A stretch of 64,000 nucleotides of DNA from an uncultured Bacilli bacterium (GCA_944371605.1 CALVXU010000019.1:20832-84831); one strand, 5' to 3'; shown: positions 5,404 through 59,439, numbered from the stretch's first letter. Numbers and translations are program-made. The notes: generated by a model from the letters alone, not told the origin.

Positions 5404-5612
5404 ACTGCCTATCTTTCTTTCAGTCACTTAATTATAGTTAAAATCAGCTTGCTTTTTGTAGGCTTCGCAAAAAAATATCTTTAAATATTATTTTTTACAT
5501 ATATTTATTTTATTTTTTACGTCATATAATAAATATATAGTAAAAAAACGCAATGTTTTAAAGCAATTTTTGCAATAATAGCGTGAAAGCGCTTTGATAA
5601 AATAATATGAGC

Positions 5613-5630
5613 GCTAGGGCTTTCCCTAGC
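5613..5630 (+). promoter_or_regulatory. short perfect stem-loop (GCTAGGG-CTTT-CCCTAGC) in the 5' leader of the 5673 operon
   Basis: 7-bp inverted repeat with a 4-nt loop, 40 nt upstream of the start codon. Function unknown. Confidence 0.3.
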
Positions 5631-5672
5631 AGTTTGTGTATGGATTGATGCAATTTAAATAAGGAGGAGATT

Positions 5673-8600
5673 ATGAGGAAAAAAGTTTTGCTGTCGGTTT
5701 GTCCGCCTCTTCTTTTATCTCTCAGCATCCTTGGCACAGGTTTTGCCCTAGGAGCTAATGAGGATTCTTCAACATCAACAGGCGAAGAAGAAAATAAAGA
5801 ACCGATCAAAGCTACAATTGCAGATATTTATGAAAACACCCGTCCTGATTATGGCGAGATTTTCGATTACGATTCAGAATATGTCCCATCTGATCCACCG
5901 GATGTCAACAAAGATATCACCCTTACATTAGATTCTAGATCACCTGTCAAATTCAAAAACGGTTCTAATACTCTTGTTAAGAAGCCGACAGAATATTTGA
6001 CAGAAGATGATTTTGATTTAGATGGTATAACAGGTGGTAGAAAATTAGCTGGTATTGCTAATGTCACTGAAGAAGGTATCGGTTCTGGAGTTGCGTTAGA
6101 CTCTTATACAGTCCCATTTGAAAACGCGACTATTCTTCCATATTTCTCTGCTGCTGAAGGCTTCACTTCTATCGATATAGCTAGCGGATCATATAGTCAC
6201 AACATTAATACTGATGGACTCAGTTGGAGTGGTATCACCACAGAGAGAACCACAATCACTAGAAATGTTGTGGTGCCCGGAGGCAGTGATAATTATCCAG
6301 CTATTGGTGCGACTATCGATATCAGCGGAATAGTTGATGCTGGAGATGCGTTTAGAATCGATAATGATGCCGCTGATGTTAATGTCAATGATAAAGAGAA
6401 TGAAACTTTCGCTGTCTATGAATTCAATTATAATTTCTATAACTTTGGTGAAAGTGATCTACATTTAGAATACTATCAAATTTCCAATTCTTCTGAATAT
6501 AAAAATGGCAGCACTGATTATGAAAATCATTATCGTATTGACGTGATTTTAAAACCTGGTGAAGGTTTCTCAACAATGGGTCAATATAAGTTGAAAGACA
6601 ATAACAATTTCTTGACCTATGTCGTTGTTGACAGAACTGTAGAAGACTTTAATTTAGGGTTAGCTATCGAAGCTAAGAAGACTGATTTAGAAGAGCCATC
6701 TACTATCAGTCCTGAGAAACCTAAAGAATATGCTCCTATCAACCTCAATTTACCTGATGGCATCACTTTAAAAGACGATAGTTATGGACAAGGCGTTATC
6801 GGTGAGCCTATCATTCCTCCGACTGACGAACAATTGAACAATACCACAGGTAGAACCATCGAAGGTTGGTATATCGACGGTGATGAACATACCATCATTG
6901 ATGGCACTAGATTGCCAGAAGGTGGTGTCACTATCGCTCCTTACTTCGCTCCTCTTGAAGGACAGCAGCTAGTTCCTGGTGATTCAAAATCCTACCATGC
7001 TGATTATTATTACAATTTAGATGATGAAGCCGCTGCTGAAGAAGATGAAGATTATTATAAAGATGAAACGACCATCAAAACAAAACTCCATTTCATCAAT
7101 AATGAAAAGGGTGTTATCGTTTCTAAAACTGATGGTTTTATCAAGAATGATTTCTTTAGATTACTAACATATTGTGGAGAATCTAAAACTAATCAAGGCA
7201 TCATCGCTAACAATAAATATCGTTTCACTTACAATTTCACCAACCAAGGTAGCGAAACCATAAAATTCCACGTGATTCAAATTCAACAACAGACTGCGAT
7301 CACTGAAGAAGAGGGTGCTGTCATCAGCGAAACAATCACTTTAGAGCCACAACAAAGCAAACAAATTGTTCTAGAGATTGTTTTAACTAATGATAACAAA
7401 AATGCTATGACTGGCTTTGTCATGGAAGATGATGTTTCAGCTTTTGAAATGGCGATGACAATGAACAAGCAAAATCTTACTGCTCCGACGATGTCCAATG
7501 TCACTTTAGTCAATTCTCCAATAACTTTCGCTAACGGAACTAATACTATTTCTAAAGAATTAGGTAAGACTTTAACCTTAGCTGATTTTGATACATCTTC
7601 TATCGCTGATAGTCGCACATTGCTCGGTGTAGCCGAAGTCACAGCTGACGGATATGTCAATCAGACATCTTTAGAAAATGGTGGATCATATGCTTTATCC
7701 AGTAAAGAAGTATCAATAATGCCTTACTTTTCTGAAGCTTCCGGACTCACTAGAGTGGTTGCTGCTGGCGCTAATCATGGCTTTAATTTAGATGGTGTTC
7801 CTGGCACATTAAACGATGACTTATTTGCCACTAATGATGAAGCTTATGCTGATATCTCTTTCTCTTCCAACAAAGTGATTTCTGCTGGCGAAGATAGCTA
7901 TGCACAATTAGGTTTCATAGGCGGAATCAATAAGAAGATAACCACCGGTGACGGAATGAGATGGGATTTTAAAGCCAATGGTGTTAACTCCAGCTCTTCT
8001 GCTGAAGCCGTTTATGAATTCCACTATATCTTTGAAAATATGGGAGATGAAGATTTGCATTTAGATTTCTATCAAATCTCTGCTTCTTCCGAATATAAAG
8101 AGAATAATAAAGCCTATGAAAGCCGCTATCGCATCGATATCGATTTAGCACCTGGTGAAAGCATGACTGCTTTAGGCCAATATAAATTAGGTAGTAATAA
8201 TAACTTCCTATCTTTCGCCATCGCTGATCAAGATATGAACAGCATGTCATTAGGTATTTCTATCACAGCTAAAAAGACTGATTTAAGTGAACCGACCACT
8301 GTTTCTGAACCTGAAGATGAAGAACCAGTCGATCCAGAACCCATTGAAGAACTTGTAAAATTTAATTTGCCTTCTGGTATCACAATCAAAGATACTTATA
8401 CAGCTGGAAATGCTGGAGATAAGTTAATAGTTCCTACAGCTGATCAAATCGAAAACACCACTGGTAGAACTATCGAAGGCTGGTTTATCGATGATGCTGA
8501 CGCTGATATAGTGACTGATTCAACCACTATTCCTGAAGCCGGTGTCACCATCGCACCTTATTTCGCACCTATCAATGATTACAATAAGCTTTGGCTTTGT

Positions 8601-9104
8601 TCTGGAAGTTGGAATGGCAAACCGAATGATTCTAATTATACAGGTATCGATATCGATAGTTTTACACAAAATCCTCATACTGAGGAGGGGGTGACTAATA
8701 CAGACAGACAAAAAATAGTCAGAGGTAAAAATGGTTTTGCTGAATTAGGCGTAGATCTCGAATATACTGGCGGAACTATTAATGCTGGAAACTACTTTAG
8801 ATGCGACAGCAAATACTTACCATCTAACATGACTGCTGGCACTCATAAATTTTCTCTTAATTTTGAAAATAAAGGTACTGCTGAAATCGACTTTACACTC
8901 TATTTGATCAACAGCGGACACGATAAAAATAGTGCAAGTAACAATAGCTTTGTTCTCAAATTAGCTCCAGGAGAATCAACCACCATCTCTATTTCACCGA
9001 CATATGCTGGTAATAATGGAAATTGCTTGCTCTTATTTGAAGCTAATTCCGCATGCTCTGACTTTAATTTAGGCGTCGCTATGTCCGTAAAATATGGTGC
9101 CTAA
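5673..9104 (+). CDS. large secreted repeat protein (1143 aa) with tandem ~390-aa modules, each ending in a Listeria-Bacteroides (Flg_new)-like repeat
   Basis: AAGGAGG ribosome-binding site at 5660-5666 and N-terminal signal peptide (MRKKVLLSVCPPLLLSLSILGTGFALGANE). Two near-collinear repeats (YEFNYNFYNFGESDLHLEYYQIS...TGRTIEGWYIDGD...GVTIAPYFAP and YEFHYIFENMGDEDLHLDFYQIS...TGRTIEGWFIDDADAD...GVTIAPYFAP) plus a truncated third copy at the C-terminus. No C-terminal anchor. Confidence 0.8.
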   Translation: MRKKVLLSVCPPLLLSLSILGTGFALGANEDSSTSTGEEENKEPIKATIADIYENTRPDYGEIFDYDSEYVPSDPPDVNKDITLTLDSRSPVKFKNGSNTLVKKPTEYLTEDDFDLDGITGGRKLAGIANVTEEGIGSGVALDSYTVPFENATILPYFSAAEGFTSIDIASGSYSHNINTDGLSWSGITTERTTITRNVVVPGGSDNYPAIGATIDISGIVDAGDAFRIDNDAADVNVNDKENETFAVYEFNYNFYNFGESDLHLEYYQISNSSEYKNGSTDYENHYRIDVILKPGEGFSTMGQYKLKDNNNFLTYVVVDRTVEDFNLGLAIEAKKTDLEEPSTISPEKPKEYAPINLNLPDGITLKDDSYGQGVIGEPIIPPTDEQLNNTTGRTIEGWYIDGDEHTIIDGTRLPEGGVTIAPYFAPLEGQQLVPGDSKSYHADYYYNLDDEAAAEEDEDYYKDETTIKTKLHFINNEKGVIVSKTDGFIKNDFFRLLTYCGESKTNQGIIANNKYRFTYNFTNQGSETIKFHVIQIQQQTAITEEEGAVISETITLEPQQSKQIVLEIVLTNDNKNAMTGFVMEDDVSAFEMAMTMNKQNLTAPTMSNVTLVNSPITFANGTNTISKELGKTLTLADFDTSSIADSRTLLGVAEVTADGYVNQTSLENGGSYALSSKEVSIMPYFSEASGLTRVVAAGANHGFNLDGVPGTLNDDLFATNDEAYADISFSSNKVISAGEDSYAQLGFIGGINKKITTGDGMRWDFKANGVNSSSSAEAVYEFHYIFENMGDEDLHLDFYQISASSEYKENNKAYESRYRIDIDLAPGESMTALGQYKLGSNNNFLSFAIADQDMNSMSLGISITAKKTDLSEPTTVSEPEDEEPVDPEPIEELVKFNLPSGITIKDTYTAGNAGDKLIVPTADQIENTTGRTIEGWFIDDADADIVTDSTTIPEAGVTIAPYFAPINDYNKLWLCSGSWNGKPNDSNYTGIDIDSFTQNPHTEEGVTNTDRQKIVRGKNGFAELGVDLEYTGGTINAGNYFRCDSKYLPSNMTAGTHKFSLNFENKGTAEIDFTLYLINSGHDKNSASNNSFVLKLAPGESTTISISPTYAGNNGNCLLLFEANSACSDFNLGVAMSVKYGA

Positions 9105-9115
9105 CAGGAGGAAAT

Positions 9116-9655
9116 ATGAGTAATACATTTAGAAATAAAAAAGTAGGGTCTTATTTCGGTGCTTTCTTCGCACTATTAGTCATCGCCTTAGCCATCTATT
9201 ATTTCATCGCAATCGTTCCATTAGCTACAGTTGAAGGAGCTGCTCTTTATAATATTTTGGCTCCTTGGCAGCTCTATACCATCTTCGCCTTATTATTAGC
9301 TGGTGGTGTCCTTTATCTGGTCTCTTTCTTCTTTAATTTAGACAAATTAGGTGCTGGCGTCATGGGTACTTTATGCTTTGTTTCCTTCATTCTTTATATA
9401 ATACCTGTCTTAGCTTATCCGATAAGTCAAATGATGGTCTATCCTATCGACCAATTGTTCCAAATCCCTCATTTAATAACCGTTTTAATAATCCCTATCG
9501 GCGCATTACTTCTAGCTATCATTTGCAACGTCTTAGCTTATTGTCCATTAGTTAAAAGAAATGATACTATCACTTCTGACTATCTCTATAAAATTTTAAC
9601 TGAAGGTTTTGATTTCATCACTCTTAACAAGGAGGCCACACATGAAGAAAAATAA
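9116..9655 (+). CDS. polytopic membrane protein (179 aa, 4-5 TM helices), hypothetical
   Basis: Strong ribosome-binding site (CAGGAGG) 7 nt upstream. Hydrophobic segments run throughout. It lies between the repeat-protein gene and the GH3 gene and overlaps the next gene start. Confidence 0.65.
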   Translation: MSNTFRNKKVGSYFGAFFALLVIALAIYYFIAIVPLATVEGAALYNILAPWQLYTIFALLLAGGVLYLVSFFFNLDKLGAGVMGTLCFVSFILYIIPVLAYPISQMMVYPIDQLFQIPHLITVLIIPIGALLLAIICNVLAYCPLVKRNDTITSDYLYKILTEGFDFITLNKEATHEEK

Positions 9656-12600
9656 TAGAAAACTTTGGAGAGCTTCGACCATCACTTTCAACGTCTGCTT
9701 AGCCGTCGGTGGTTTGGCTTATCTTTTTTCCGCTTTGACAAAACAATATCCTGATATCGCCGGATACGTTTCTAGTTTCTTAAAAGATTCAGGATATACT
9801 GAAACAATCACCACTGGTAAAGAACCGGTCAGATTTAAAACGTGGTATTCTTCTATCGAAGATGTTTTAAACGGTAATGACGATGTCGGCAAAGCCGCTG
9901 AATCCGAAGGTGCTGTTCTTCTAAAGAATGATAATAGTGCTCTGCCTTTAAGCACTTCTGATGATAAGGTTTCTTTGTTTGGAGTCACTGCTTATCAACC
10001 TATTTATTCATTGGATGGCGCTGGTGAAGTTCAAATCAACGCTGATAGACAACAATATTTCTATGATGAGATGGAAGCTGCTGGTCTAACAATGAACAAA
10101 GAATTAGCAGATTGGTATAACAGTGATGATGGCCGAGCATATTGGCATGCTATTCCAAAATATTCTGGTGGTGGAAACAGCCAAAATATGACTTTAAATG
10201 GTGCTAGTTGGGATACTTTACCATCATCTAAAACCGCTAGCGGATATAACACTGCTGTATTTGTTGTCGGTCGTATCACTAATGAAGGTATCGATGTCAT
10301 GCCTTCTAATAATGTCGGTGGTGCACGAGATAGAGATTTCTTAAAATTCACCAATAATGAATTATCAGTTTTACAAGGTTTAAAAGAAGCTAAAGATGCT
10401 GGAACCTTTGATAAGATCGTTGTCTTGATCAATTCTGCCACTGGAATTATGGAAGATTTGCCGACTCTCTTTGATAACTATGGCGTTGATGCTGCTATGT
10501 GGGTGGGTTTGCCAGGCACCTCTGGCATCGAAGCTGTAGCTGATTTATTAGTTGGAAAATCATCTCCTTCTGGTGGTCTATCAGATGCTTGGTACACTTC
10601 CAGAGATGCTCATCCGACCACTCCTTACTATGGAAATGGATCAAACTTATTGATTCAAGAAGATATCTATTATGGTTATAGATATGCTGAGACTAGATAT
10701 GAAGATAGAGTCTTAGGAACAGGCAGCACCGATTCCTATATTTATGACGATAATATCTCTTATCCTTTTGGATATGGTCTATCTTACAGTGAATTCTCAT
10801 ACACTTTCGATAGTCTCGAAATCGATAATGATCCTTTGAAAAACTATTATGATAACACCTATAACGAAGTTGGTGTTGAAGATGAAGAGAAAGCTGGAAA
10901 ACGTCATGAAATCATGATGATTGATGATCCTAACAGACGTAAAGAAGGAGATGATTACATCGCTAATGTCACTGTCACTAACACTGGTGATATGGCTGCT
11001 AAGCAAACAGTTGAAATTTACCTTTCTAAACCATATACAGAGACTGATAAACAACATGGCGTCGAAGATGCCTCTGTCGAATTAGTCGGCTATGGTAAAA
11101 CAGATAAACTTGAACCGGGAACTTCACAAACTTTACAGATCAGAATAGATGCCAACAAATACTTCGCTTCCTACGATGATTCTGTTAAAAATTACACTGT
11201 TGAACCCGGAACATATTATTTGGTCGCTGCCACAAACTCGCATGAAGCTGTTAACAGCCTTTTAAAAGCTAAGGCTGAAGATGGTGTTCAAGTAGATCAA
11301 GGCAAAATGGATGATGAATATGGTGCTGGTGATGCTGATAATGTTCAATCCGTCAATGTCACTAACGAATATTCTGAAAACTATAAATATTGGACTAAAG
11401 GTGGCAATGAAGTGACTAATCTCTTCGACTTTGCTGATCCTAATAAAGTCGGTGATGAGAGTTCACACGTCACTTATATGTCTCGTTCAAATTGGACACA
11501 AACCGCTGATCAAGCTAAAAATCAATCTGTCACTGTCAGCGGCGATATGGGATTCTTAGGTCAGACTAATGGCGGAAGTAATTTCAGTGTTGAAAACGCT
11601 CAAAAATACTATCCAGAAGCAGTCGCTTCCTTCGAAGATAAATATCCGACCTTCAGAGATGAAGATGCTCAAGCTACTATGACACTAGCCGAAATGATCG
11701 GTGTTGAATATGATACTAAACGCGGCGCAACCGAAGAAGATGTTCAAAAATGGGAAGACTTCTTAAATCAGCTCTCTTGGAGTGAATTAGCTACTCTCAC
11801 TGGAACTGGTAGAAGAATGACCGCCGCTATTGAGAGCATCGGTAAACCACAGACAAATGATGTCAACGCTTCTAACGCTATCTCTTGGCATTTCAACATG
11901 GGCGTCGATAGTAATGAGGCCAATGATACCGTAGGTTTTGGCGTCCGTTTCGATCCTGATAATGCTAGAAAATATTATCCTACCGGTTATCCATGCGAAG
12001 GCATCATCGCTTCAACTTTCAATAATGAACTCGCATATGCTATCGGTCAAGCTATCGGCGAAGATGGTTTATGGTCTGGTGCTGCTGGCTTATATGGTTT
12101 CGGTTTAGGCTTACATAGAAATCCATACCATGGTAGAACTGGTGAATACTACTCGGAAGATCCTTTCTTAACCGGTATGATCGGTGGATATTCATCATTA
12201 GGTGCTCAGTCTAAAGGCTTATATGTCTACAATAAACACTTTGTCTTGAATGACCAAGAACAGAATAGAATTAGTTATAATACTTGGTTAAATGAACAAT
12301 CTTTCCGTGAGATTTATTTGAGACCATTCGAAATCGCTATCGAAATCGGTGACGCTATGAATGTTATGAATTCCTTCAATCATATCGGCACTGCTTGGTC
12401 TGGAAACTGCTATAACTTAATGACCGCTTGGTTAAGAGGCGAAGCTGGTATGGCCGGATTTGCTGTCACCGACTGGTATAAATCTGGTGGTATGAATATG
12501 ACTTATGGTATCTTAGCTGGAACTGATTTGCCTGATGGTACTGACGACACTACTATTGAAAATAATGGACCTGCCAAAGGCAATACTGGATTCTATGCTC

Positions 12601-12830
12601 AAGCTGTAAGACAATCAGCTAAGAGAATCCTCTACGTTGTCGCTAATTCCAACGCCATGAACTTCATCGGTGATGACACTAGAATCGTCATTCATGAGCC
12701 TAATTGGTATGCTTGGAGGGATAACATCCAATATGTTGGCTTTGGCTTAATCGGTGCTAGCGCCTTATTCATGATTGCTGCTGGCCTCTACACTTTCGTC
12801 TTCAAAAGAGATGAGACTGTCAATAACTAA
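9642..12830 (+). CDS. glycoside hydrolase family 3 (beta-glucosidase-like) with reversed domain order, N-terminal signal-anchor and C-terminal TM helix
   Basis: Start taken at the ATG 9642, preceded by AAGGAGG at 9629-9635 (ORF track starts at 9609). The first half carries GH3 domain-2 and FN3 motifs (AVLLKNDNSALPL, VGLPGTSG..AVADLLVGKSSPSGGLSDAW, YPFGYGLSYSEF, VTVTNTGDMAAKQTVEIYLSKP). The second half carries domain-1 motifs (GRTGEYYSEDPFL, KHFVLND, REIYLRPFEIAI, GFAVTDW nucleophile region). It ends with a hydrophobic helix then KRDETVNN. Confidence 0.85.
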   Translation: MKKNNRKLWRASTITFNVCLAVGGLAYLFSALTKQYPDIAGYVSSFLKDSGYTETITTGKEPVRFKTWYSSIEDVLNGNDDVGKAAESEGAVLLKNDNSALPLSTSDDKVSLFGVTAYQPIYSLDGAGEVQINADRQQYFYDEMEAAGLTMNKELADWYNSDDGRAYWHAIPKYSGGGNSQNMTLNGASWDTLPSSKTASGYNTAVFVVGRITNEGIDVMPSNNVGGARDRDFLKFTNNELSVLQGLKEAKDAGTFDKIVVLINSATGIMEDLPTLFDNYGVDAAMWVGLPGTSGIEAVADLLVGKSSPSGGLSDAWYTSRDAHPTTPYYGNGSNLLIQEDIYYGYRYAETRYEDRVLGTGSTDSYIYDDNISYPFGYGLSYSEFSYTFDSLEIDNDPLKNYYDNTYNEVGVEDEEKAGKRHEIMMIDDPNRRKEGDDYIANVTVTNTGDMAAKQTVEIYLSKPYTETDKQHGVEDASVELVGYGKTDKLEPGTSQTLQIRIDANKYFASYDDSVKNYTVEPGTYYLVAATNSHEAVNSLLKAKAEDGVQVDQGKMDDEYGAGDADNVQSVNVTNEYSENYKYWTKGGNEVTNLFDFADPNKVGDESSHVTYMSRSNWTQTADQAKNQSVTVSGDMGFLGQTNGGSNFSVENAQKYYPEAVASFEDKYPTFRDEDAQATMTLAEMIGVEYDTKRGATEEDVQKWEDFLNQLSWSELATLTGTGRRMTAAIESIGKPQTNDVNASNAISWHFNMGVDSNEANDTVGFGVRFDPDNARKYYPTGYPCEGIIASTFNNELAYAIGQAIGEDGLWSGAAGLYGFGLGLHRNPYHGRTGEYYSEDPFLTGMIGGYSSLGAQSKGLYVYNKHFVLNDQEQNRISYNTWLNEQSFREIYLRPFEIAIEIGDAMNVMNSFNHIGTAWSGNCYNLMTAWLRGEAGMAGFAVTDWYKSGGMNMTYGILAGTDLPDGTDDTTIENNGPAKGNTGFYAQAVRQSAKRILYVVANSNAMNFIGDDTRIVIHEPNWYAWRDNIQYVGFGLIGASALFMIAAGLYTFVFKRDETVNN

Positions 12831-12863
12831 TAACTAAATTTCTGATTTAAACTCCTTATAAAA

Positions 12864-12900
12864 ACTGCAATTGTCGCAAGGCTATTGCAGTTTTTATTTT
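12864..12900 (+). terminator. rho-independent terminator after the GH3 operon
   Basis: Hairpin ACTGCAAT..ATTGCAGT followed by TTTTTATTTT. Confidence 0.7.
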
Positions 12901-12973: not shown

Positions 12974-13417
12974 TTATTTTTTATGGGCTTTTTTCAATAA
13001 AGATTTGATTTTTTTAGGTGTGAGCTTTTCTTTTTTAGCTTCTAAAGCCTTCACACTCCCAAGCTTTTGAGCTGTTTCATAATACCAGCATTTATATTCG
13101 ACCATACATAAAGCTTTCTTCATCGCTGCTATCTTAGCTTTAGTCTTCTCCCTCTGCATCAAAAAGAAATTCAATCTCTTTTCTATTGAACTATCTCCTT
13201 CTTTAGTCCATTCGATAAACTGCTTGATATCTTTCAATTGTAAATCAGCTTTCTTCAAACATTCGATCAGAAAAATAGTTTCGATGTCAGAGTCAGTGAA
13301 TTTTCTGATGCCATTCACTCTTTTGATTTCAGGTAGTAGTCCCTCTTTATCATAAAATCGGATCTGTGAAATCGTGAGATTGAACTTTTTAGCGATTTCT
13401 CCTATCGTATATTCCAT
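12974..13417 (-). CDS. MerR-family transcriptional regulator
   Basis: N-terminal MEYTIGEIAKKFNLTISQIRFYDKEGLL is a classic MerR HTH. It is divergent from the 13528 gene. Confidence 0.85.
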   Translation of the reverse strand: MEYTIGEIAKKFNLTISQIRFYDKEGLLPEIKRVNGIRKFTDSDIETIFLIECLKKADLQLKDIKQFIEWTKEGDSSIEKRLNFFLMQREKTKAKIAAMKKALCMVEYKCWYYETAQKLGSVKALEAKKEKLTPKKIKSLLKKAHKK

Positions 13418-29742: not shown

Positions 29743-29743
29743 A

Positions 29744-32859: not shown

Positions 32860-32873
32860 GTGATCACCTTGGA

Positions 32874-40475: not shown

Positions 40476-40780
40476 CAAAATAACCTCCGAAAAATATGCA
40501 AAATCAATTTTATTGAGATTGTTTATCAATGCAAGTGAAAAATCGATTAGCTTTTTTCAGGTCACATAGCTATTTCTTTGCTGTTTTTATAAATTTTGTA
40601 GTTTTCAACGCTATAAATTGTCAATAAATAATTATTCAAACCTTCGTTTGTTTTGTTTGTAAGTGCTTACATTTGAGGGTAATTTATTTTTATAATTATG
40701 TTTATATTTATAAATAATAATATCGATTGTGTTTTTTATCGATTTTCAGTTTTAAAGAAGAAGTTTATGAAAGTGCTTTC

Positions 40781-53985: not shown

Positions 53986-56900
53986 ATGAAATTAAAAAAA
54001 GTTCTATCAATCGTAGGCATCTCTGCGATTATGGCAGTGGTTCTAGCTGTTAATATCGCCTGTGGTATTTTGGCTGATCAGATAAATACTTGGGTGGTTG
54101 GTGTCGATGTTCAAGTTGATAAAGACACTTTGACTAACACTGCTCAAGGAAACAAAGAGCTTGCCGAACAAGTCGTTAGAGAAGGATCTGTTTTAGTTCA
54201 AAACAATGATGATGTCATCCCTCTTGATAAAGATGTGGATACTAAAGTCAATGTTTTCGGATGGGCTAGCACCGCGTGGGTGATTGGCGGTTCTGGTTCT
54301 GGCCAAGTTAAAAACGCTGATGACAATACTTATAAAGCAGATACTGACTTCTTACAAGCTCTTGAGGACTATGGTATTGAGTACAATACTGAACTCACAG
54401 ATATGTATCGTGATTTCAAATCCGAAAGAGACTATGCTGGAAGTGGGTCTTTGCATTCGAGCGCAGCTCAATTCACACGTTTATTCGAACCGAGCATCAG
54501 TGATACCAACTATTATAGCGATGAGATATTAGCTAATGCTGAAAACTTCTCTGATACTGCTATCGTTGTATTAGGAAGAACTGGCGGTGAAAGTAACGAT
54601 GAACCGAGAATTCAATACAAGCAAACAGAGAAGAATGGTGGTATTGACCAAGATGATAGTAGAACATATCTTCAAATCTCTACTGAAGAAGAAGAGCTAT
54701 TAAGCTTTGTGGGTGCTAATTATGATAAGGTTGTCGTTTTAATCAATTCGACTAACGCCATGCAGCTCGACTTTTTGGAGACTATCGACGGCTTAGATGC
54801 TTGTTTTGTTGTCGGTGGAACTGGTGTTGATGGTGCATCAGCTATTCCGGAATTACTATATGGAGACATCGCTCCTAGCGGTAGACTTTCGGATACTTAT
54901 CCGTATGATCATGCCTCTAATCCTTCATTTGCTATTTCTGGTGAAGCTGGATCTGGAGCCTACACTAACGGACGTGGATTATATCCGTATGATGGAACAA
55001 CTTGTGGTAATTTTGCCTCACCTCAACCTTATACACAAGTCTCTTATATGGACTATGTAGAAGGTATCTATGTCGGTTATAGATATTACGAAACAGCAGA
55101 TGCTGAAGGCTATTTTGATGATGTTGATAACGAATATGGACAAGGCTATGATGGGGTTGTTCAATACCCGTTTGGATATGGCTTATCAACAACTACTTTC
55201 AGTCATGAAATCATGAATGTCAGCGTTCCTGAAAACACTGCACTGACAGCAGATAGTGAAATCACCATTTCTATCAATGTTAAAAACACTGGTGATATTC
55301 CAGGTATGGAAGTTGTCCAACTTTACTACACTCCAGAATATTATGCTGGTGGCATTGAAAAGAGTGCGATCAATTTAGCTGATTTTGCTAAAACTTCATT
55401 ATTGCAACCTGGTGAAGAAGCCGGTATCACTTTGACGATTAAAGCTAGAGATATGGCCTCTTACGATTATGATGATGCTAATCAAAATAATCATGAAGGC
55501 TATGAATTAGAGCACGGTTCATATCAATTGAAGTTGATGTCTAATTCTCATGAGGCTTTAACACTAAGCACTGAAAGTGGTGTCGGTTATAATAATCCGA
55601 CATTAAACTATACTGTTGCTGAAGACATCTTCTATGATACAGATGAATATTCAGGAAATGAAATCTATAATCATTTCACTGGTTCTTCTGCTGAAGATGG
55701 AATTTCTATCGATGGTTCTGGAACAGATCAAGATATCAACTACATGAGCAGAGTCGACTTCCCTGAAACATTCCCATACGAAAGACCTGAAGATAGAGCG
55801 ATGCCGGATAATGTTAAAGAGTTAAACTTATTCACTAGTGAACAAGCTAATGCTTGGGTTTCTGATAATAGCGATGTTGAAATGCCGACTACAAGCTCTG
55901 GCGGAGATGTTAAAATTTGGGATTCTTCAGCTAACACTTATACAGCTGAAGGTGAAATATTAGCCCAACCTGAAAACTTTGATGATCCGCTTTGGGATAC
56001 TGTTCTAGATCAAGTTTCAATCTCTGAGATGAGAAATCTCACTTTGCACGGCTATACTAAGACAGCTGCTATCGCTTCAATCGGTAAACCTGCGACTCGT
56101 GATTTAGATGGACCTAATCAAGTCGGTTCCTTCGCAAGCACTAATAATGTTACAACTGGCTTCCCGATGGAAACAGTCGTCGCACAAACCTTCAATAAAC
56201 AATTAGCTTTTGAAGTCGGTACCGGTTTAGGTCGTGATGCCAATAATAATGGTATCAAAGGCTTATATGGGCCAGCAGCTAACATTCATCGTTCTGAATA
56301 TTGCGGTAGAAACTATGAATACTATTCTGAAGATCCGTATCTCTCTGGTATCATGGCTGCTAATACTATCAAAGGATTAAAGAATGCTGGTGTCTTCTGC
56401 TATATGAAACACTTTGTTCTTTATGAAGCTGAATCAAATAGAGATGGTATGTATACATGGTTGACTGAACAAGCTCTGAGAGAAATTTATCTTGAACCAT
56501 TCCATATTGCTATCAATGAAGGTGGTTTAACTGGATTGATGTCTTCTTATGGTAGAGTTGGCGCTGTTTGGAGTGGTGGTTCTTCAGCTTTGTTGACCGG
56601 ATTATTAAGAGATGAATGGGATTTCAAAGGCGCTGTTATCACTGACTATTCTGATCATCACCAATATATGGATGGAGATTTGATGATCGTTGCTGGTGGA
56701 GACTTATTCATGGATGGTTGGACTGATAATGGCTCATATGATTATTTTGGCAATAACCCAGCCCCGTTCGTTGATAAATTACGTTTAGCTACTAAACACA
56801 TCGTCTATATGTTCTTAAATGCTGAATATACTCGTTTGCACCCAGTTGAATCTTCTGTCATCCAAGAGACCTATATCACAACACCTAGATTCCCATGGTG

Positions 56901-57024
56901 GATTCCTGTGTTAGTCGCAGTTGATGTCATCGCGGTTGGTGGATGTGGTTTCTGGGCATTTACCTTAATCAGAGGCGACAAGAAGAAAAAGCAAGCCGAA
57001 GAAGCAGAACAAACACAAAACTAA
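53986..57024 (+). CDS. second domain-permuted GH3 glycosidase with N-terminal signal-anchor and C-terminal TM/K-rich anchor (1012 aa)
   Basis: Ribosome-binding site AAAGGAG at about 53971. Domain-2/FN3 motifs come first (SVLVQNNDDVIPL, YPFGYGLSTTTF, EVVQLYYTPE). Domain-1 motifs come second (GRNYEYYSEDPYL, KHFVLYEAESNR, REIYLEPFHIAI, GAVITDYSD). It ends WWIPVLVAVDVIAVGGCGFWAFTLIRGDKKKKQ. Confidence 0.85.
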   Translation: MKLKKVLSIVGISAIMAVVLAVNIACGILADQINTWVVGVDVQVDKDTLTNTAQGNKELAEQVVREGSVLVQNNDDVIPLDKDVDTKVNVFGWASTAWVIGGSGSGQVKNADDNTYKADTDFLQALEDYGIEYNTELTDMYRDFKSERDYAGSGSLHSSAAQFTRLFEPSISDTNYYSDEILANAENFSDTAIVVLGRTGGESNDEPRIQYKQTEKNGGIDQDDSRTYLQISTEEEELLSFVGANYDKVVVLINSTNAMQLDFLETIDGLDACFVVGGTGVDGASAIPELLYGDIAPSGRLSDTYPYDHASNPSFAISGEAGSGAYTNGRGLYPYDGTTCGNFASPQPYTQVSYMDYVEGIYVGYRYYETADAEGYFDDVDNEYGQGYDGVVQYPFGYGLSTTTFSHEIMNVSVPENTALTADSEITISINVKNTGDIPGMEVVQLYYTPEYYAGGIEKSAINLADFAKTSLLQPGEEAGITLTIKARDMASYDYDDANQNNHEGYELEHGSYQLKLMSNSHEALTLSTESGVGYNNPTLNYTVAEDIFYDTDEYSGNEIYNHFTGSSAEDGISIDGSGTDQDINYMSRVDFPETFPYERPEDRAMPDNVKELNLFTSEQANAWVSDNSDVEMPTTSSGGDVKIWDSSANTYTAEGEILAQPENFDDPLWDTVLDQVSISEMRNLTLHGYTKTAAIASIGKPATRDLDGPNQVGSFASTNNVTTGFPMETVVAQTFNKQLAFEVGTGLGRDANNNGIKGLYGPAANIHRSEYCGRNYEYYSEDPYLSGIMAANTIKGLKNAGVFCYMKHFVLYEAESNRDGMYTWLTEQALREIYLEPFHIAINEGGLTGLMSSYGRVGAVWSGGSSALLTGLLRDEWDFKGAVITDYSDHHQYMDGDLMIVAGGDLFMDGWTDNGSYDYFGNNPAPFVDKLRLATKHIVYMFLNAEYTRLHPVESSVIQETYITTPRFPWWIPVLVAVDVIAVGGCGFWAFTLIRGDKKKKQAEEAEQTQN

Positions 57025-57300: not shown

Positions 57301-59439
57301 ATGAAGAAACGTATTGTTCTTCCGCTGTTATTATTACTATCGTTGTCAACAGGTGCTGTGTTGAGCTCTTGTGATTCTAACACTAGCAATAGTAATTCTA
57401 GTGTTACAGAGAAAAAAGAAGATTATACTGTTACTTGGAACGTTGCTGAGCATGCGACTGTCAAAGTGGTCGGTCAAGATTCTTTACCACAGACAGTGGT
57501 TTCAGGAACTAAAATCGAATTCACCATCACCTGTGATGCTGGTTATGCAGTAGATCGTGTCAGCAGCGGATCTAGAACGCTTTATGCTGATGATGGCACT
57601 TATTCTGTGACTGTTAGATCTAATACGACAATTAACGTTACTGTTGAAAAAGTTGTTAAATCTATCGAAATCACTACTGCTCCAAATAAATTAACTTATT
57701 TTGATGGAGAGGCTGTTGATACAACTGGTATGGTAGTGACTGCCACATATGAAAATGGTGATGTAGAAGCTATCACTGATTACACTATTGAACCTGAAAC
57801 CTTGTCCGCTGGCGATACTTCTTTCACTGTTGTTTATCAAGATAAAGAAGCTGTTGTCAATTTAGAAGACACAGTTGAATACACTGTCACTATCGATCCT
57901 AATGGAGGTACTATCTCCTCAGAAGTGTTAGCCACCTATGAGACTCAAAACAATTATAAAGTTGAAGAAGATGGAACTATTTTCTTCTCCTATTATGATA
58001 ATTTAGATACTCCATTAGCATTACCTACCGCTGATCAAATCACAAGAGATAACTATGCATTCTTAAATTGGAGCGATAATATAACTCAAATCACTAACAA
58101 TTCTAAGAATGTTGATACCACGGCTAATTGGTCGCCAGAATTAGTTGATATTTCTCGCGTTTATTTAACCGTTGAACAAGAAGAGGGAGAAGATGTTCCT
58201 TATCTCTATATTGAAGGTACATTTAAAGCTGCTGATTCAGCTATGCTTTATTTATATGAAGGCAATCAACATTTCTCATTAGAGGGTGATACTTATCAAA
58301 AACCATCCGATAGTGATGAAATGTCTGTCAAATTTGATTTGCGCAGATTAGCTGATGCTAGAACTCAAGGTGATGATGGCACAGAAAAATCATTCAAAGG
58401 TGCTTGGATGGATATCCGTTTTGTTGCGACTTTGGGTGAAGATGAGCTTGAACAAGAGATTTTTGTCAATAGTGGAGATTTAGAAGTCGATGTTAATCAA
58501 TCCATTCACGCTGGTGTTTATTCATATGCTTTTGCCACTTATAACAATGGACGCGGCGATGCTTTAAAGGTTTATTATAGTGATTTCTTTGGAACTTATA
58601 CAATTGAAACATCTACTGCTGATAATGCAGCGACATTAAATCTCAATTTCGATGTTGCTGAGGCTTACTATGATAAACAGATTACAGTCAGCTGGTGGCA
58701 ATCTTCTGAATTCCCGTCCGATACTGCTACTATCAGTGCTGATGGTAAAGCCACAGTCTCAATTGATCTCAATGATTTCAGCGCTGGTTTAGCTTATGCA
58801 CATGTCACTATCAGTGATGAAGATGGAACAACATTATTTGGTGGAACAAGCACTAACTTACCTCTCAACGCTTGTGAAACTGACTTACCAACCGCTCCTT
58901 CTGGTGTTGATAATCGATTAAAGAATTCAATCGTCGTACAAAATCCTGCTAATAATATGGCTTATTATATCGGAAGAAGTGACAGCGATGGTTTGACTAT
59001 CTTTACACGTGATGAAGGCTTCATCATTAAGGATTCATATGTCACTGTTGTAGATAATAAAGCAAAATTCATCTTTGAAGCTCAAACAAGATATGAAGAA
59101 GCTGATTTTGAAGAAGGCGGAGCGATGGCTGATTTTGCTATCGATGTTCAAAATACTGCTTGGGCATATTCACTTTTGACAAGAGAAAGTGTAGCCGTTG
59201 AAGAAGGCGTTGTCACTCTCACTTATGATTTATCCACTTTAGCTGTTGATAGTTATTTCTTCCATTATCATTTATCAGCTGTTGATCCTAGCAACATTGG
59301 CACTGGAGCAACCAATCTCACAACAGCAACAGCGACTGAAGTTGAGACTGATACTCTTTCTTATAACTATAGAATGGCTGATCCACAAGGCTGGGGATTC
59401 GAAATGGCTTATCTCACCATTACTGAAAAAGCCGCTTAA
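57301..59439 (+). CDS. surface lipoprotein (712 aa) with Ig-like and Listeria-Bacteroides-repeat-like segments
   Basis: MKKRIVLPLLLLLSLSTGAVLSSC lipobox. A Big-like beta segment (TVTVRSNTTINVTVEKVV) and an Flg_new-like repeat (RDNYAFLNWSDNITQITNNSKNVDTTANWSP) are present. Ribosome-binding site GAAAGGAG upstream. Confidence 0.7.
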   Translation: MKKRIVLPLLLLLSLSTGAVLSSCDSNTSNSNSSVTEKKEDYTVTWNVAEHATVKVVGQDSLPQTVVSGTKIEFTITCDAGYAVDRVSSGSRTLYADDGTYSVTVRSNTTINVTVEKVVKSIEITTAPNKLTYFDGEAVDTTGMVVTATYENGDVEAITDYTIEPETLSAGDTSFTVVYQDKEAVVNLEDTVEYTVTIDPNGGTISSEVLATYETQNNYKVEEDGTIFFSYYDNLDTPLALPTADQITRDNYAFLNWSDNITQITNNSKNVDTTANWSPELVDISRVYLTVEQEEGEDVPYLYIEGTFKAADSAMLYLYEGNQHFSLEGDTYQKPSDSDEMSVKFDLRRLADARTQGDDGTEKSFKGAWMDIRFVATLGEDELEQEIFVNSGDLEVDVNQSIHAGVYSYAFATYNNGRGDALKVYYSDFFGTYTIETSTADNAATLNLNFDVAEAYYDKQITVSWWQSSEFPSDTATISADGKATVSIDLNDFSAGLAYAHVTISDEDGTTLFGGTSTNLPLNACETDLPTAPSGVDNRLKNSIVVQNPANNMAYYIGRSDSDGLTIFTRDEGFIIKDSYVTVVDNKAKFIFEAQTRYEEADFEEGGAMADFAIDVQNTAWAYSLLTRESVAVEEGVVTLTYDLSTLAVDSYFFHYHLSAVDPSNIGTGATNLTTATATEVETDTLSYNYRMADPQGWGFEMAYLTITEKAA

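What the first reader, a model, noticed from the sequence alone, without database searches (positions are those of the whole stretch)
5673..12830. Three-gene surface module: giant tandem-repeat secreted protein, small polytopic membrane protein, permuted GH3
The genes are tightly linked, each with a strong ribosome-binding site, and the module ends in one terminator. The 1143-aa first product consists of two ~390-aa near-collinear repeats, each ending in a Listeria-Bacteroides (Flg_new)-like repeat (TGRTIEGW(Y/F)IDxD...GVTIAPYFAP), plus a truncated third copy. It has a signal peptide but no anchor, so it may rely on the membrane protein or the GH3 for retention. A second locus pairs the same two protein types in the opposite order: permuted GH3 at 53986 and an Flg_new-bearing lipoprotein at 57301. 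The recurring pairing suggests a dedicated glycan capture and hydrolysis system in an organism whose surface proteins lack sortase/LPXTG signals.
Basis: partly seen in the sequence, partly recalled or inferred. Interest (0 to 1): 0.6.

Follow-up and report, generated by a model that had tools for sequence, protein, structure and literature searches.

The report
Conserved membrane-tethered glycosidase cassette with partners
Three co-transcribed genes encode a sugar-cleaving enzyme pinned to the outside of the cell membrane by both ends, a small four-helix membrane partner and a long modular surface protein; the same trio recurs in about two dozen uncultured gut-bacterial species and is sometimes fused into one protein, so it is a real, previously undescribed functional unit, probably for harvesting sugars at the cell surface.

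Summary
The three genes are real and form one operon: 5673-9104, 9116-9655 and 9642-12830, with strong ribosome-binding sites, an 11-nt gap, a 14-nt overlap and one strong terminator.

The GH3 is circularly permuted, keeps its catalytic Asp and Glu, and carries a membrane helix at each end.

It is (B-D)x4. B is a ~80-aa remote relative of the InlB B-repeat (Flg_new). D is a ~175-aa jelly-roll domain with no Pfam family and only 365 cluster representatives among 1.84 billion proteins.

Comparative evidence is strong:
- All 33 closely related GH3 genes found in other genomes have the four-helix protein immediately upstream, and 30 have a D-domain protein before it.
- The flanking genes differ between loci.
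- Several genomes carry 2-4 copies.
- Four protein lineages fuse the GH3 and B-D modules into one polypeptide.

Most relatives of the first protein are lipoproteins; this one has lost the lipobox.

The second locus (53986/57301) has a permuted GH3, but its lipoprotein is not homologous and a terminator separates the genes.

Glycan binding, complex formation and substrate are inferred, not shown. This is a new variant of surface glycan-harvesting systems.

The parts
5584..5597 (.). cre-like palindrome TGAAAGCGCTTTGA, 89 nt upstream of ORF1 (candidate CcpA operator)
   Evidence: 13 of 14 match to TGWAANCGNTNWCA on both strands. It is not conserved upstream of other cassettes (2 of 47), so it is organism-specific at best.
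5661..5667 (+). Shine-Dalgarno AAGGAGG of ORF1
   Evidence: Read directly from the sequence.
5673..9104 (+). ORF1, a 1143-aa secreted modular protein (B-D)x4 with no Pfam family
   Evidence: AF2 model with mean pLDDT 76.7, all-beta.
5673..5759 (+). ORF1 signal sequence (aa 1-29): MRKK followed by a ~22-residue hydrophobic stretch, no lipobox. It is either cleaved by signal peptidase I or kept as a signal anchor.
   Evidence: Sequence. At least 20 of 28 close relatives carry a lipobox Cys at about residue 24, while this lineage (window, L001, L008) does not.
5814..5834 (+). Conserved N-terminal motif TIADIYE (family consensus TI.DAY[DE]) in a low-confidence, probably extended segment
   Evidence: Present in 23 of 28 close family members. 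Residues 1-72 have pLDDT below 50. Function unknown; a docking role is speculative.
5904..6152 (+). B1 module (aa 78-160), remote InlB B-repeat-like
6156..6689 (+). D1 module (aa 162-339), jelly-roll beta-sandwich
   Evidence: AF2 domain model with pLDDT 92.7 and pTM 0.89. Foldseek matches CBM4, CBM16, CBM22, CBM35, SGBP-B and Eph ligand-binding domains at E 4e-5 and weaker, TM 0.35-0.46.
6720..6953 (+). B2 module (aa 350-427) with the TGRTIEGWYID...APYFAP motif
6957..7484 (+). D2 module (aa 429-604), a divergent copy
7482..7736 (+). B3 module (aa 604-688), paralogue of B1
7740..8285 (+). D3 module (aa 690-871), paralogue of D1 (41% identity)
8340..8570 (+). B4 module (aa 890-966), paralogue of B2 (58% identity)
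8574..9101 (+). D4 module (aa 968-1143), the C-terminal domain (a full copy, not a truncated one)
9116..9655 (+). ORF2, a 179-aa membrane protein with four TM helices, predicted N-in/C-in; unannotated family
   Evidence: TM scan and alignment. No Pfam family; database relatives are all 'hypothetical'. Found immediately upstream of all 33 closely related GH3 genes.
9642..12830 (+). Permuted GH3 glycosidase, 1062 aa, predicted to sit outside the membrane with a TM helix at each end
9681..9737 (+). GH3 N-terminal TM helix containing the conserved I-x-F-N-V motif (Asn17)
   Evidence: The motif is present in 34 of 52 GH3s with a 4TM partner and in 1 of 37 without one.
9915..10787 (+). GH3 (alpha/beta)6-sandwich domain (Pfam Glyco_hydro_3_C), holding the acid/base Glu215 (nt 10284-10286)
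   Evidence: Glu215 aligns with GlyA1 Glu-143 (PMC5104943) and is conserved in all close relatives.
11007..11240 (+). Fn3-like domain of the GH3
11982..12494 (+). Core of the GH3 (beta/alpha)8 barrel (Pfam Glyco_hydro_3), holding the nucleophile Asp944 (nt 12471-12473)
   Evidence: Asp944 aligns with GlyA1 Asp-709. R832, K865, H866 and R876 are also conserved.
12726..12782 (+). GH3 C-terminal TM helix followed by a short cytoplasmic tail beginning KR (KRDETVNN, not net basic)
12858..12897 (+). Intrinsic terminator of the operon
   Evidence: dG -19.4 kcal/mol, z -7.0, followed by a U-run.
53986..57024 (+). Second permuted GH3 with a TM helix at each end (30% identical to the first); no 4TM partner
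57301..59439 (+). Lipoprotein (lipobox LSSC) of a different family, with Big_3-like and possibly one B-repeat-like segment; probably a separate transcript

Best explanation
The locus is one operon. It most likely encodes a surface glycoside-harvesting unit of a wall-poor or sortase-poor gut Firmicute (an uncultured 'Bacilli/Firmicutes' MAG lineage).

The enzyme is a circularly permuted GH3 exo-beta-glycosidase. Its whole catalytic body (about 990 aa) lies outside the cell. It is held on the membrane by an uncleaved N-terminal helix and a C-terminal helix, with both ends inside. Permutation may bring the two termini close together, which would let them anchor side by side; this was not checked in a structure.

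The translationally coupled 179-aa four-helix protein is proposed to be its obligate membrane partner. It would pack against the enzyme's anchor helices, using the conserved Asn in the GH3 N-terminal helix and the conserved N-V-x-A-W in partner helix 4.

The 1143-aa protein is proposed to be the non-catalytic capture or spacer subunit. It is a string of four jelly-roll (CBM-like) D domains separated by InlB-B-repeat-like B domains, which would reach away from the membrane and hold glycans or glycosides near the enzyme.

In most relatives this subunit is lipid-anchored. Here the lipobox is lost, so it must be retained by an uncleaved signal anchor, by binding to the GH3/4TM pair, or released.

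Status of each step:
- Shown: gene structure, permuted domain order, intact catalytic residues, conserved cassette, fusions.
- Inferred: topology, physical complex, carbohydrate binding, substrate.
For: Operon structure: strong ribosome-binding sites, an 11-nt gap, a 14-nt overlap and a single strong terminator.

Enzyme:
- The GH3 is permuted.
- Asp944 and Glu215 align with GlyA1 Asp-709 and Glu-143 (PMC5104943).
- Asp944 and the other -1 subsite residues checked are invariant in the 56 GH3s scoring >=700 bits and in 36-37 of the 37 weaker ones; Glu215 is invariant in the 56 and present in 33 of the 37.
- All six cassette-type GH3s first examined have hydrophobic helices at both ends; N-termini are basic and, in most relatives, so are the C-terminal tails.

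Conservation of the cassette:
- Of 33 distinct GH3s scoring >=1100 bits, 33 have the 4TM gene abutting upstream and 30 have a D-domain protein before it.
- The association fades with GH3 divergence: 17 of 22 and then 9 of 28 retain the 4TM gene.
- Flanking genes differ completely between loci.
- Several MAGs carry 2-4 paralogous cassettes.

Rosetta-stone fusions: P0161, P0168, P0144 and P0146 are single polypeptides consisting of TM, permuted GH3, TM, loop, TM and (B-D)2-3. In L093 a 4TM gene lies 3 nt upstream of P0161.

Partner coupling: the GH3 N-terminal TM motif [ILV]xFN[ILV] tracks presence of the 4TM partner, 34 of 52 against 1 of 37.

Evolutionary rates: the GH3s are 55-58% identical where the ORF1 relatives are 29-36% and the 4TM proteins 29-32%. 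This is the pattern of a conserved enzyme with a fast-evolving, module-shuffling binding partner.

D domain:
- The model is confident (pLDDT 92.7), and its best PDB matches are carbohydrate-binding modules and a Bacteroides surface glycan-binding protein.
- D is also found fused to an SGNH/GDSL esterase (P0177).

Catabolic links: 4TM-GH3 pairs sit next to GH2, MFS_2 (GPH) transporters and UxuA/UxuB/UxaC genes in L003, L090-92, L050, L071 and L081.
Against: - There is no experimental or transcript evidence.
- D-domain similarity to CBMs is at fold-class level only (TM 0.35-0.46, about 10% identity). There is no significant sequence hit to any CBM family or PDB chain.
- The 4TM protein has few conserved polar residues and no known relatives, so its role is guessed from position and covariation.
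- The N-terminal helix of the GH3 could be a cleaved signal peptide.
- The window operon has no linked transporter or catabolic genes, so the substrate is unknown.
- The cre-like site is not conserved in other cassettes.
- ORF1 may simply be released into the medium, since it has no anchor.
Confidence: 0.6

Rival explanations
1. The enzyme and 4TM protein form the functional pair, but the B-D protein does not bind glycans. It would be a surface coat, spacer or adhesin (for host mucus, plant particles or other cells) that is merely co-expressed, or that shields or positions the enzyme.
For: - D domains give weak sequence hits only to generic Ig-like/E-set families such as CARDB, ASH, fn3_5 and DUF1573.
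- The structural matches also include non-carbohydrate binders such as Eph receptor ligand-binding domains, MAM domains and viral capsids.
- InlB-type B repeats occur in adhesins and invasins.
- The first-gene slot can be filled by unrelated Ig-like proteins: Big_2 in L082 and a Big_3/Flg_new_2 protein in L033.
- ORF1 evolves fast and shuffles modules, as exposed antigens do.
Against: - Fusion to the GH3 and to an SGNH esterase is the typical behaviour of substrate-targeting modules.
- The top structural hits are dominated by CBMs and SGBP-B.
- The D-protein tracks the GH3 clade closely, 30 of 33.
Confidence: 0.2
2. The cassette remodels the cell's own envelope glycans (capsule, glycolipid or exopolysaccharide trimming or turnover) rather than harvesting nutrients.
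For: - In the window and in L001 the operon sits among housekeeping genes (mfd, pth, ham1), with a YfhO-family gene nearby in L001.
- In L087-89 it is next to lgt.
- The enzyme is permanently tethered to its own membrane.
- Many cassettes have no transporter or regulator linked to them.
Against: - The cassette is repeatedly embedded in catabolic clusters containing GH2, GPH transporters, an AraC regulator and UxuA/UxuB/UxaC/KDG genes.
- A cre-like operator lies upstream in this organism.
- The GH3 belongs to the beta-glucosidase/xylosidase clade, with the acid/base Glu in the sandwich domain. This differs from NagZ-type cell-wall recycling enzymes (PMC5104943).
- Multiple divergent paralogues per genome suggest substrate diversification.
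Confidence: 0.12
3. The four-helix protein is a small permease or channel that imports the sugar released by the GH3, not a structural partner.
For: - It is always directly coupled to the enzyme gene.
- The window operon otherwise lacks any transporter.
- It is polytopic.
Against: - It has only four helices in about 150 aa and no conserved charged residues within them.
- It has no similarity to any transporter family.
- Loci such as L050, L071 and L090 carry a dedicated MFS_2 transporter as well as the 4TM gene.
- It covaries with a polar motif in the enzyme's own anchor helix.
Confidence: 0.06

Closest known systems
GlyA1 / BrGH3A subfamily of GH3 with permuted domain topology (PDB 5K6L-5K6O; PMC5104943, PMC11233000)
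   Same: - Same domain order: (alpha/beta)6-sandwich, FnIII-like, long linker, (beta/alpha)8 barrel.
- The nucleophile Asp and acid/base Glu are aligned and conserved.
- Same ecological association with Firmicutes of animal guts.
   Different: - Only a distant relative (E 3e-45).
- Here the enzyme has a predicted TM helix at each end, whereas 'transmembrane' and 'signal peptide' do not occur in the GlyA1 paper.
- It lacks GlyA1's extra C-terminal domain.
- GlyA1 Tyr-677 is Phe here.
- It comes with a dedicated 4TM partner and a B-D protein, neither of which is described for that subfamily.
Surface glycan-binding proteins (SusE/F-type, e.g. B. thetaiotaomicron SGBP-B, PDB 7KWB) encoded in Bacteroidetes polysaccharide utilisation loci
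   Same: - A lipoprotein made of tandem beta-sandwich domains, encoded next to a glycoside hydrolase.
- It evolves fast while the enzyme is conserved.
- SGBP-B is among the best structural matches of the D domain.
   Different: - No sequence homology.
- These are monoderm organisms, with no SusC/SusD pair.
- The anchor is the cytoplasmic membrane.
- The window protein has lost its lipid anchor.
- Binding is untested.
Gram-positive PULs (gpPULs) of Roseburia / Eubacterium rectale (PMC5320581)
   Same: A Firmicute locus built around a glycoside hydrolase. Some cassette copies (L003, L090, L050, L071) sit with GPH transporters and AraC regulators, as gpPULs do.
   Different: - The window operon has no transporter and no regulator inside it, so it fails the gpPUL definition.
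- gpPUL enzymes carry their own CBMs or are sortase- or signal-peptide-targeted. They do not have a separate binding subunit plus a 4TM partner.
InlB B-repeat / Listeria-Bacteroides repeat (Pfam Flg_new PF09479, Flg_new_2 PF18998; PDB 2Y5P)
   Same: - About 70-80 aa in length.
- A G-W-Y core motif and a C-terminal aromatic strand that align in register.
- Some relatives' copies reach Pfam significance.
   Different: - The window copies do not match the Pfam models at all.
- Half of them (B1, B3) have lost the GW motif.
- Each is followed by a D domain rather than occurring in pure tandem arrays.
Jelly-roll carbohydrate-binding modules (CBM4, CBM16, CBM22, CBM35; porphyran-binding CBM 8XMZ)
   Same: Beta-jelly-roll fold of similar size. 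D is appended to or associated with carbohydrate-active enzymes.
   Different: - TM-scores of only 0.35-0.49 and about 10% identity.
- No sequence membership in any CBM family.
- The C-terminal half looks like a CARDB/ASH-type Ig sandwich by sequence.

Membership tests
GH3, permuted-topology subfamily (GlyA1-like) | Domain order: (alpha/beta)6-sandwich, then FnIII-like, then (beta/alpha)8 barrel | tested here: met
   Pfam GH3_C at 103-393, Fn3-like at 467-544 and GH3_N at 792-962 of the ORF. The second GH3 has the same order.
GH3, permuted-topology subfamily (GlyA1-like) | Catalytic nucleophile Asp in the barrel and acid/base Glu in the sandwich domain | tested here: met
   Asp944 aligns with GlyA1 Asp-709 and Glu215 with Glu-143 in the phmmer alignment to 5k6l_A (residues named in PMC5104943). 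Both are conserved across relatives.
GH3, permuted-topology subfamily (GlyA1-like) | Exo-beta-glycosidase activity | not testable with these tools
   Only sub-threshold NCBIfam matches to arabinopyranosidase, glucosidase and xylosidase equivalogs. Specificity is unknown.
Listeria-Bacteroides repeat / InlB B-repeat (Flg_new, Flg_new_2) | Match to PF09479 or PF18998 at or above the gathering score | tested here: not met
   No hit in ORF1 even at E<=10. Window B2 alone matches no family at E<=1. The 57301 lipoprotein gives only E 0.4 and 0.12.
Listeria-Bacteroides repeat / InlB B-repeat (Flg_new, Flg_new_2) | Remote homology at profile level | tested here: inconclusive
   The B profile finds only InlB B-repeat chains in the PDB, but at E 0.013-0.55. 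Of 40 relatives' B copies, 8 hit Flg_new (best 7.8e-7) and 4 hit Flg_new_2.
Carbohydrate-binding module (any CAZy CBM family) | Beta-sandwich/jelly-roll fold shared with known CBMs | tested here: inconclusive
Carbohydrate-binding module (any CAZy CBM family) | Sequence membership in a CBM family | tested here: not met
   No significant PDB sequence hit. One of 40 D copies hits CBM_4_9 at E 0.0015; the rest give only weak Ig-like families.
Carbohydrate-binding module (any CAZy CBM family) | Demonstrated carbohydrate binding | not testable with these tools
   Needs recombinant protein.
Gram-positive PUL (gpPUL; PMC5320581) | [quoted passage not shown] | tested here: not met
   The enzyme is present. 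No recognisable transporter lies in or next to the operon. The only regulator is a convergent MerR gene at 12974-13417. Some relatives' cassettes (L090, L050, L071) do sit with MFS_2 and AraC genes.
Bacteroidetes PUL | SusC-like TonB-dependent transporter plus SusD-like lipoprotein pair | tested here: not met
   Pfam scans of the cassette proteins found no such domains.
Bacterial lipoprotein (for ORF1) | Lipobox [LVI][ASTVI][GAS]C at the end of the signal peptide | tested here: not met
   Window ORF1 reads ...LGTGFALGA/NE, with no Cys at that position. At least 20 of 28 close relatives do have a lipobox.
Sortase-anchored surface protein (for ORF1) | C-terminal LPxTG followed by a hydrophobic stretch and a basic tail | tested here: not met
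   No LPxTG in ORF1, and no such tail among window ORFs of at least 150 aa.

The most novel reading that the evidence does not exclude
The 4TM protein, the GH3 anchored at both ends and the (B-D)n lipoprotein assemble into a stoichiometric, utilisome-like membrane complex. This would be a widespread, modular glycan-harvesting device of uncultured monoderm gut lineages (Christensenellales, Borkfalkia/Coproplasma-type Clostridia, RF39-like Bacilli, Acholeplasmataceae). Paralogous cassettes would be tuned to different glycosides, some feeding glucuronide/hexuronate catabolism. The D domain would be a new carbohydrate-binding module family, and the 4TM protein a new class of dedicated membrane chaperone or anchor for an exo-enzyme.
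Probability: 0.4. Interest if true: 0.75.

Novelty: new variant of a known kind. Interest (0 to 1): 0.6.

Why it matters
Surface glycan capture is well understood for Bacteroidetes (Sus-like systems) and for cellulosomal or sortase-dependent Firmicutes. It is not understood for the small-genome, wall-poor or sortase-poor gut lineages known almost only from metagenomes, some of them (Christensenellaceae) repeatedly linked to host health.

This cassette offers a concrete, testable three-component device for those organisms. It comprises an enzyme family of known chemistry in an unreported membrane topology with an anchor at each end, plus two protein families with no annotation at all. One is a 4TM partner. 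The other is a ~175-aa jelly-roll domain with only 365 cluster representatives among 1.84 billion.

The gene fusions and strict gene order give unusually strong genomic evidence for a physical complex.

If the D domain binds carbohydrate, it would define a new CBM family. The variable (B-D)n arrays and multiple paralogues per genome would then become markers for predicting substrate range in uncultured gut bacteria.

Tried and rejected
- **Self-BLAST of the whole ORF1.** It returned only the identity hit because contained HSPs are culled. Splitting the protein solved this.
- **Full-length ORF1 family alignment as a genome-scan query.** It was too divergent to use. The GH3 alignment A4 was used instead.
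- **Foldseek with the full-length ORF1 model.** It gave only smeared multi-domain matches (TM about 0.1), which were uninformative. A single-domain model was made instead.
- **Hypothesis that the 57301 lipoprotein is a paralogue of ORF1.** Rejected on BLAST, HMM and hhalign evidence.
- **Hypothesis that P0212 (712 aa) is the 57301 protein.** Rejected: the two share only a Big_3-like segment.
- **Hypothesis that the cre-like operator is a conserved feature of the cassette.** Rejected: 2 of 47 cassettes against a background of 1.9%.
- **Hypothesis that Phe912 (Tyr in GlyA1) marks the cassette clade.** Rejected: Phe is also common in unpartnered GH3s.
- **Word-indexed protein searches.** They returned few hits (11 and 8) and no names. 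The exhaustive profile search was more informative.
- **Cluster look-up.** It gave no names for any of the four proteins.

Full report
**What is in the sequence**

The region holds three ORFs on the + strand: 5673-9104 (1143 aa), 9116-9655 (179 aa), and a GH3 whose longest ORF starts at TTG 9609. The GH3 almost certainly starts at ATG 9642. An AAGGAGG lies 6 nt upstream, and the 1062-aa product is on record in the protein collection with exactly this sequence.

ORF1 and ORF2 also have strong Shine-Dalgarno sequences. ORF2 starts 11 nt after the ORF1 stop, and the GH3 start overlaps the end of ORF2 by 14 nt.

The consensus scan found no convincing internal terminator. It also missed the hairpin 28 nt after the GH3 stop. 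Folded, that hairpin (12858-12897) has dG -19.4 kcal/mol and z -7.0 against shuffles, and it runs into a U-tract.

**The GH3**

- Pfam places GH3_C first, then Fn3-like, then GH3_N, so the enzyme is circularly permuted.
- This topology is already known. The ruminal enzyme GlyA1 (PDB 5K6L) defined a GH3 subfamily with this order, found mostly in gut Firmicutes (PMC5104943). BrGH3A is a second example (PMC11233000).
- In the alignment to 5k6l_A, Asp944 matches the GlyA1 nucleophile Asp-709 and Glu215 matches the acid/base Glu-143.
- These two residues, with R832, K865, H866 and R876, are conserved in essentially all relatives collected. The enzyme should therefore be active.
- Specificity cannot be read from sequence. 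The best solved relatives are beta-glucosidases (8idz, E 1e-61), and NCBIfam gives only far sub-threshold hits to arabinopyranosidase, glucosidase and xylosidase models.
- What has not been described for this subfamily is the topology. Every cassette-type GH3 first examined has a ~20-residue hydrophobic helix after a basic N-terminus, and a second helix about 15-35 residues from the C-terminus, in most relatives followed by a basic tail (the window's tail is KRDETVNN).
- By the positive-inside rule, the ~990-aa catalytic body is outside the cell and both ends are inside. This is a prediction. Cleavage of the N-terminal helix is not excluded.

**The 1143-aa protein**

Piecewise self-comparison shows that residues 90-428 match 615-967 at 43% identity (E 2e-85). 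It also reveals a ~175-aa unit present four times. Iterated HMMs and alignments resolve the architecture as (B-D)x4:

| Module | Copy 1 | Copy 2 | Copy 3 | Copy 4 |
|---|---|---|---|---|
| B | 78-160 | 350-427 | 604-688 | 890-966 |
| D | 162-339 | 429-604 | 690-871 | 968-1143 |

- B1 resembles B3, B2 resembles B4 and D1 resembles D3, while D2 and D4 have diverged. The protein is therefore a duplicated B-D-B-D block.
- The full-length AlphaFold model is all-beta with mean pLDDT 76.7. Its first 72 residues are disordered.

B modules:
- No window copy matches Pfam Flg_new or Flg_new_2.
- A profile of 40 B copies from the family finds only InlB B-repeat chains in the PDB, aligned in register through the G-W-Y motif, at marginal E-values (0.013).
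- Of those 40 copies, 8 hit Flg_new (best 7.8e-7) and 4 hit Flg_new_2.
- B is therefore a remote, partly degenerate relative of that repeat.

D modules:
- There is no significant sequence match to any PDB chain or Pfam family. Only weak Ig-like hits appear.
- A single-domain model is confident (pLDDT 92.7, pTM 0.89).
- Foldseek places it among jelly-roll domains: CBM4, CBM16, CBM22, CBM35, a porphyran-binding CBM, B. thetaiotaomicron SGBP-B, and also Eph and MAM domains. TM-scores are only 0.35-0.49.
- An exhaustive profile search finds 365 cluster representatives among 1.84 billion proteins, so the family is small and unnamed.

**The small protein**

- It has four hydrophobic helices, a basic N-terminus and a basic stretch after helix 4.
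- It has no Pfam family. NCBIfam gives only a far sub-threshold hit (E 3e-4, 20 bits against a cut-off of 98) to a Mycoplasma membrane-protein family.
- All database relatives are unnamed or 'hypothetical'.
- Across 49 relatives, conservation is limited to the following:
  - an N-terminal FFK.R..AFY segment;
  - a G-A-x-x-M turn;
  - Y-x-Y...Q-x-M after helix 3;
  - N-V-x-A-W in helix 4.
- This does not look like a transporter.

**Comparative genomics**

ORF1 has few detectable relatives. Wherever the downstream DNA is available, the same three genes follow in the same order, in different neighbourhoods:
- mfd-pth-ham1 on one side and MerR on the other (L001/2);
- inside an MFS_2-GH2 ... UxuA-SDR-UxaC-aldolase-kinase operon (L003);
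- after a cation ATPase (L005);
- between a transposase and thioredoxin/LeuRS (L006/7);
- between leuA and lgt/shikimate genes (L087-89).

A scan of one genome per species with the cassette GH3 alignment returned 79 loci, nearly all from gut MAGs. The record titles name Christensenella and Christensenellaceae, Borkfalkia, Coproplasma, Onthomonas, 'Bacilli', Acholeplasmataceae, Gemmiger and Lachnospiraceae. HMM searches of all ORFs in these loci gave a graded pattern:

| GH3 score to cassette profile | Distinct GH3s | 4TM gene abutting upstream | D-domain protein |
|---|---|---|---|
| >=1100 bits | 33 | 33 | 30 upstream (25 of 27 where >=5 kb upstream exists) |
| 700-1100 bits | 22 | 17 | 8 upstream |
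| 450-700 bits | 28 | 9 | 0 upstream, 3 downstream |

- The full cassette occurs in about 24 species-level genomes. Several carry 2-4 paralogues, for example CAAGME01, CAJUPB01 and CASEMM01.
- The family's architecture is freely modular: one to five B modules per D, and two to six D per protein, nearly always ending in a D.
- Between the same loci the GH3s are 55-58% identical, the ORF1 relatives 29-36% and the 4TM proteins 29-32%.

**Fusions**

Among the D-domain hits, four mutually distant proteins are single polypeptides. They are P0161 (2102 aa), P0168, P0144 and P0146. Each consists of an N-terminal TM helix, a permuted GH3, a TM helix, a ~35-70-aa (about 43-91 residues between the scanned helices) charged loop, another TM helix, and then two or three D modules; B modules were detected before them in P0161 and P0144 only.

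In the P0161 locus a 150-aa 4TM gene lies 3 nt upstream and a further Dx3 protein lies downstream. Another D protein, P0177, carries a GDSL/SGNH esterase domain.

These Rosetta-stone fusions are the strongest evidence that the B-D protein and the GH3 work together on the same face of the membrane.

**Link between the GH3 and the 4TM protein**

- The GH3 N-terminal helix contains a conserved [ILV]-x-F-N-[ILV] motif, ITFNV in the window.
- The motif is present in 34 of 52 GH3s that have a 4TM gene upstream and in 1 of 37 that do not. The one exception (L039) has an unrecognised 148-aa three-helix ORF upstream.
- The juxtamembrane segment before the C-terminal helix also differs between the groups: W-[YF]-x-x-R-D in partnered GH3s and T-P-W-W-Q in unpartnered ones.
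- Polar Asn residues in TM helices are well known to drive helix association. That is general knowledge and was not tested here.
- Together with the translational coupling, this supports a physical GH3-4TM complex.

**Anchoring of ORF1**

- At least 20 of 28 close relatives have a lipobox (…AGC, …AAC, …TGC) around residue 24.
- In 23 of 28, a conserved TI.DAY[DE] motif follows about 17-25 residues later.
- The window protein and its two closest relatives keep the motif (TIADIYE, aa 48-54) but lack the Cys.
- Retention by an uncleaved signal anchor or by the partner proteins is plausible but untested.

**Hints about substrate**

- Directly upstream of the 4TM gene, some loci carry a 57301-like Flg_new_2/Big_3 lipoprotein (L033) or a Big_2 protein (L082).
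- Other loci carry no surface protein there. Instead they have MFS_2 and GH2 followed by a further 607-aa ORF (L050, Borkfalkia), GH2 plus MFS_2 (L071, Acholeplasmataceae), or UxuA plus an SDR (L081).
- L003 and L090-92 also link the cassette to GH2, a GPH transporter and hexuronate catabolism.
- In some organisms the device therefore seems to feed glycoside or glucuronide utilisation.
- In the window itself nothing catabolic is linked, so the substrate remains open.

**The second locus**

- The GH3 at 53986-57024 is permuted and has a TM helix at each end, but it is only 30% identical to the first and has no 4TM gene.
- The 57301 lipoprotein has a good lipobox.
- It has no D domain (hhalign probability 0.06%). 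It shows only a 24-column B-like motif and sub-threshold Pfam hits.
- A strong hairpin plus U-run at 57048-57095 (dG -24.7, z -7.0) and a promoter-like site separate it from the GH3.
- Its relatives do sit beside permuted GH3 genes elsewhere: L075 upstream (E 4e-33), L033 in the first-gene slot, and L053 downstream.
- The general theme of a permuted, tethered GH3 beside a large Ig-like surface lipoprotein therefore recurs, but with non-homologous partners.

**Verdict**

The interpretation as a dedicated surface capture-and-hydrolysis module is supported by gene order, paralogy and fusions.

Carbohydrate binding by D domains, the physical complex, the membrane topology and the substrate are all inferences. 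The kind of system, a tethered glycosidase with a non-catalytic binding partner, is known from Sus-like systems and gpPULs (PMC5320581). This implementation meets neither definition, and it uses two unannotated protein families. I rate it a new variant of a known kind.

Noticed in passing
window 5584-5597 and 53862-53875 (also 57101-57114): Palindromic cre-like sites (TGAAAGCGCTTTGA, TGTAAGCGCTTATA) lie 89 nt upstream of ORF1 and 111 nt upstream of the second permuted GH3. The window holds 17 one-mismatch matches to TGWAANCGNTNWCA against 5.8 expected by chance. This suggests CcpA-type catabolite control of both loci in this organism.
   Followed up: partly
window 5613-5630: A GC-rich stem-loop (GCTAGGG-CTTT-CCCTAGC) sits in the leader between the cre-like site and the ORF1 ribosome-binding site. 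It may be an attenuator or a processing element.
   Followed up: no
window 12858-12897 and 57048-57095: The two terminators after the two permuted GH3 genes share the same outline (AAAAACTG[C/T]A...T[G/A]CAGTTTTTATTT). Both have z of about -7.
   Followed up: partly
window 20049-22400 (+): A third GH3 (783 aa) has the canonical domain order (GH3_N, GH3_C, Fn3-like) and no hydrophobic helices, so it is presumably cytoplasmic. The organism thus has two tethered permuted GH3s outside and a classical one inside.
   Followed up: partly
window 26670-35816 (-): An Opp-type ABC operon has unusually large components: a 979-aa family-5 binding protein, a 687-aa OppC-like permease, and ATPases of 450 and 577 aa with insertions. 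This is reminiscent of Mollicutes-like Bacilli.
   Followed up: no
window 36312-40529 (-): A 1404-aa subtilase with a PA domain and an I9 propeptide, another large exported enzyme.
   Followed up: no
window 51385-53058 (-) and 53229-53819 (-): A GH5 lipoprotein with a C-terminal fascin-like (beta-trefoil-type) domain lies directly upstream of the second permuted GH3, on the opposite strand. Next to it is a LytTR-domain protein lacking a receiver domain.
   Followed up: no
window 22454-24145 (-), 24505-26397 (-), 42009-45482 (-): Three large ORFs (562, 629 and 1156 aa) have no significant Pfam family.
   Followed up: no
window 12974-13417 (-): A MerR-family regulator lies convergent to the operon. 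A MerR gene is also present at the same place in the syntenic relative L001, but not next to other cassettes.
   Followed up: partly
L093 6001-12309 (P0161); also P0168, P0144, P0146: Giant fusion proteins have the layout TM, permuted GH3, TM, charged loop, TM, an uncharacterised region of roughly 300-400 aa (containing the sequence FEAE...), then B-D modules. That uncharacterised region was not analysed.
   Followed up: partly
L090-L092 (1-13808) and L025: Two cassettes lie in tandem, the first with a Big_3 protein in the first-gene slot. They are followed by a divergent GH2 gene, an AraC regulator, MFS_2 and UxuA/SDR genes.
   Followed up: partly
window GH3 residue 912 (nt 12375-12377): The subsite -1 Tyr of GlyA1 (Tyr-677; Tyr also in 8idz and 2x40) is Phe in all 34 closely related cassette GH3s. 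Phe, Leu and Met also occur in unpartnered relatives, so this does not mark the cassette clade.
   Followed up: yes
window ORF1 aa 48-54 (nt 5814-5834) and relatives: The motif TI.DAY[DE], about 20 residues after the lipobox, is conserved in 23 of 28 close family members. It is absent from D proteins encoded downstream of the GH3. The fusion proteins were not scanned for it; only the start of the post-TM3 segment of P0161 was inspected by eye. Its role is unexplained.
   Followed up: partly
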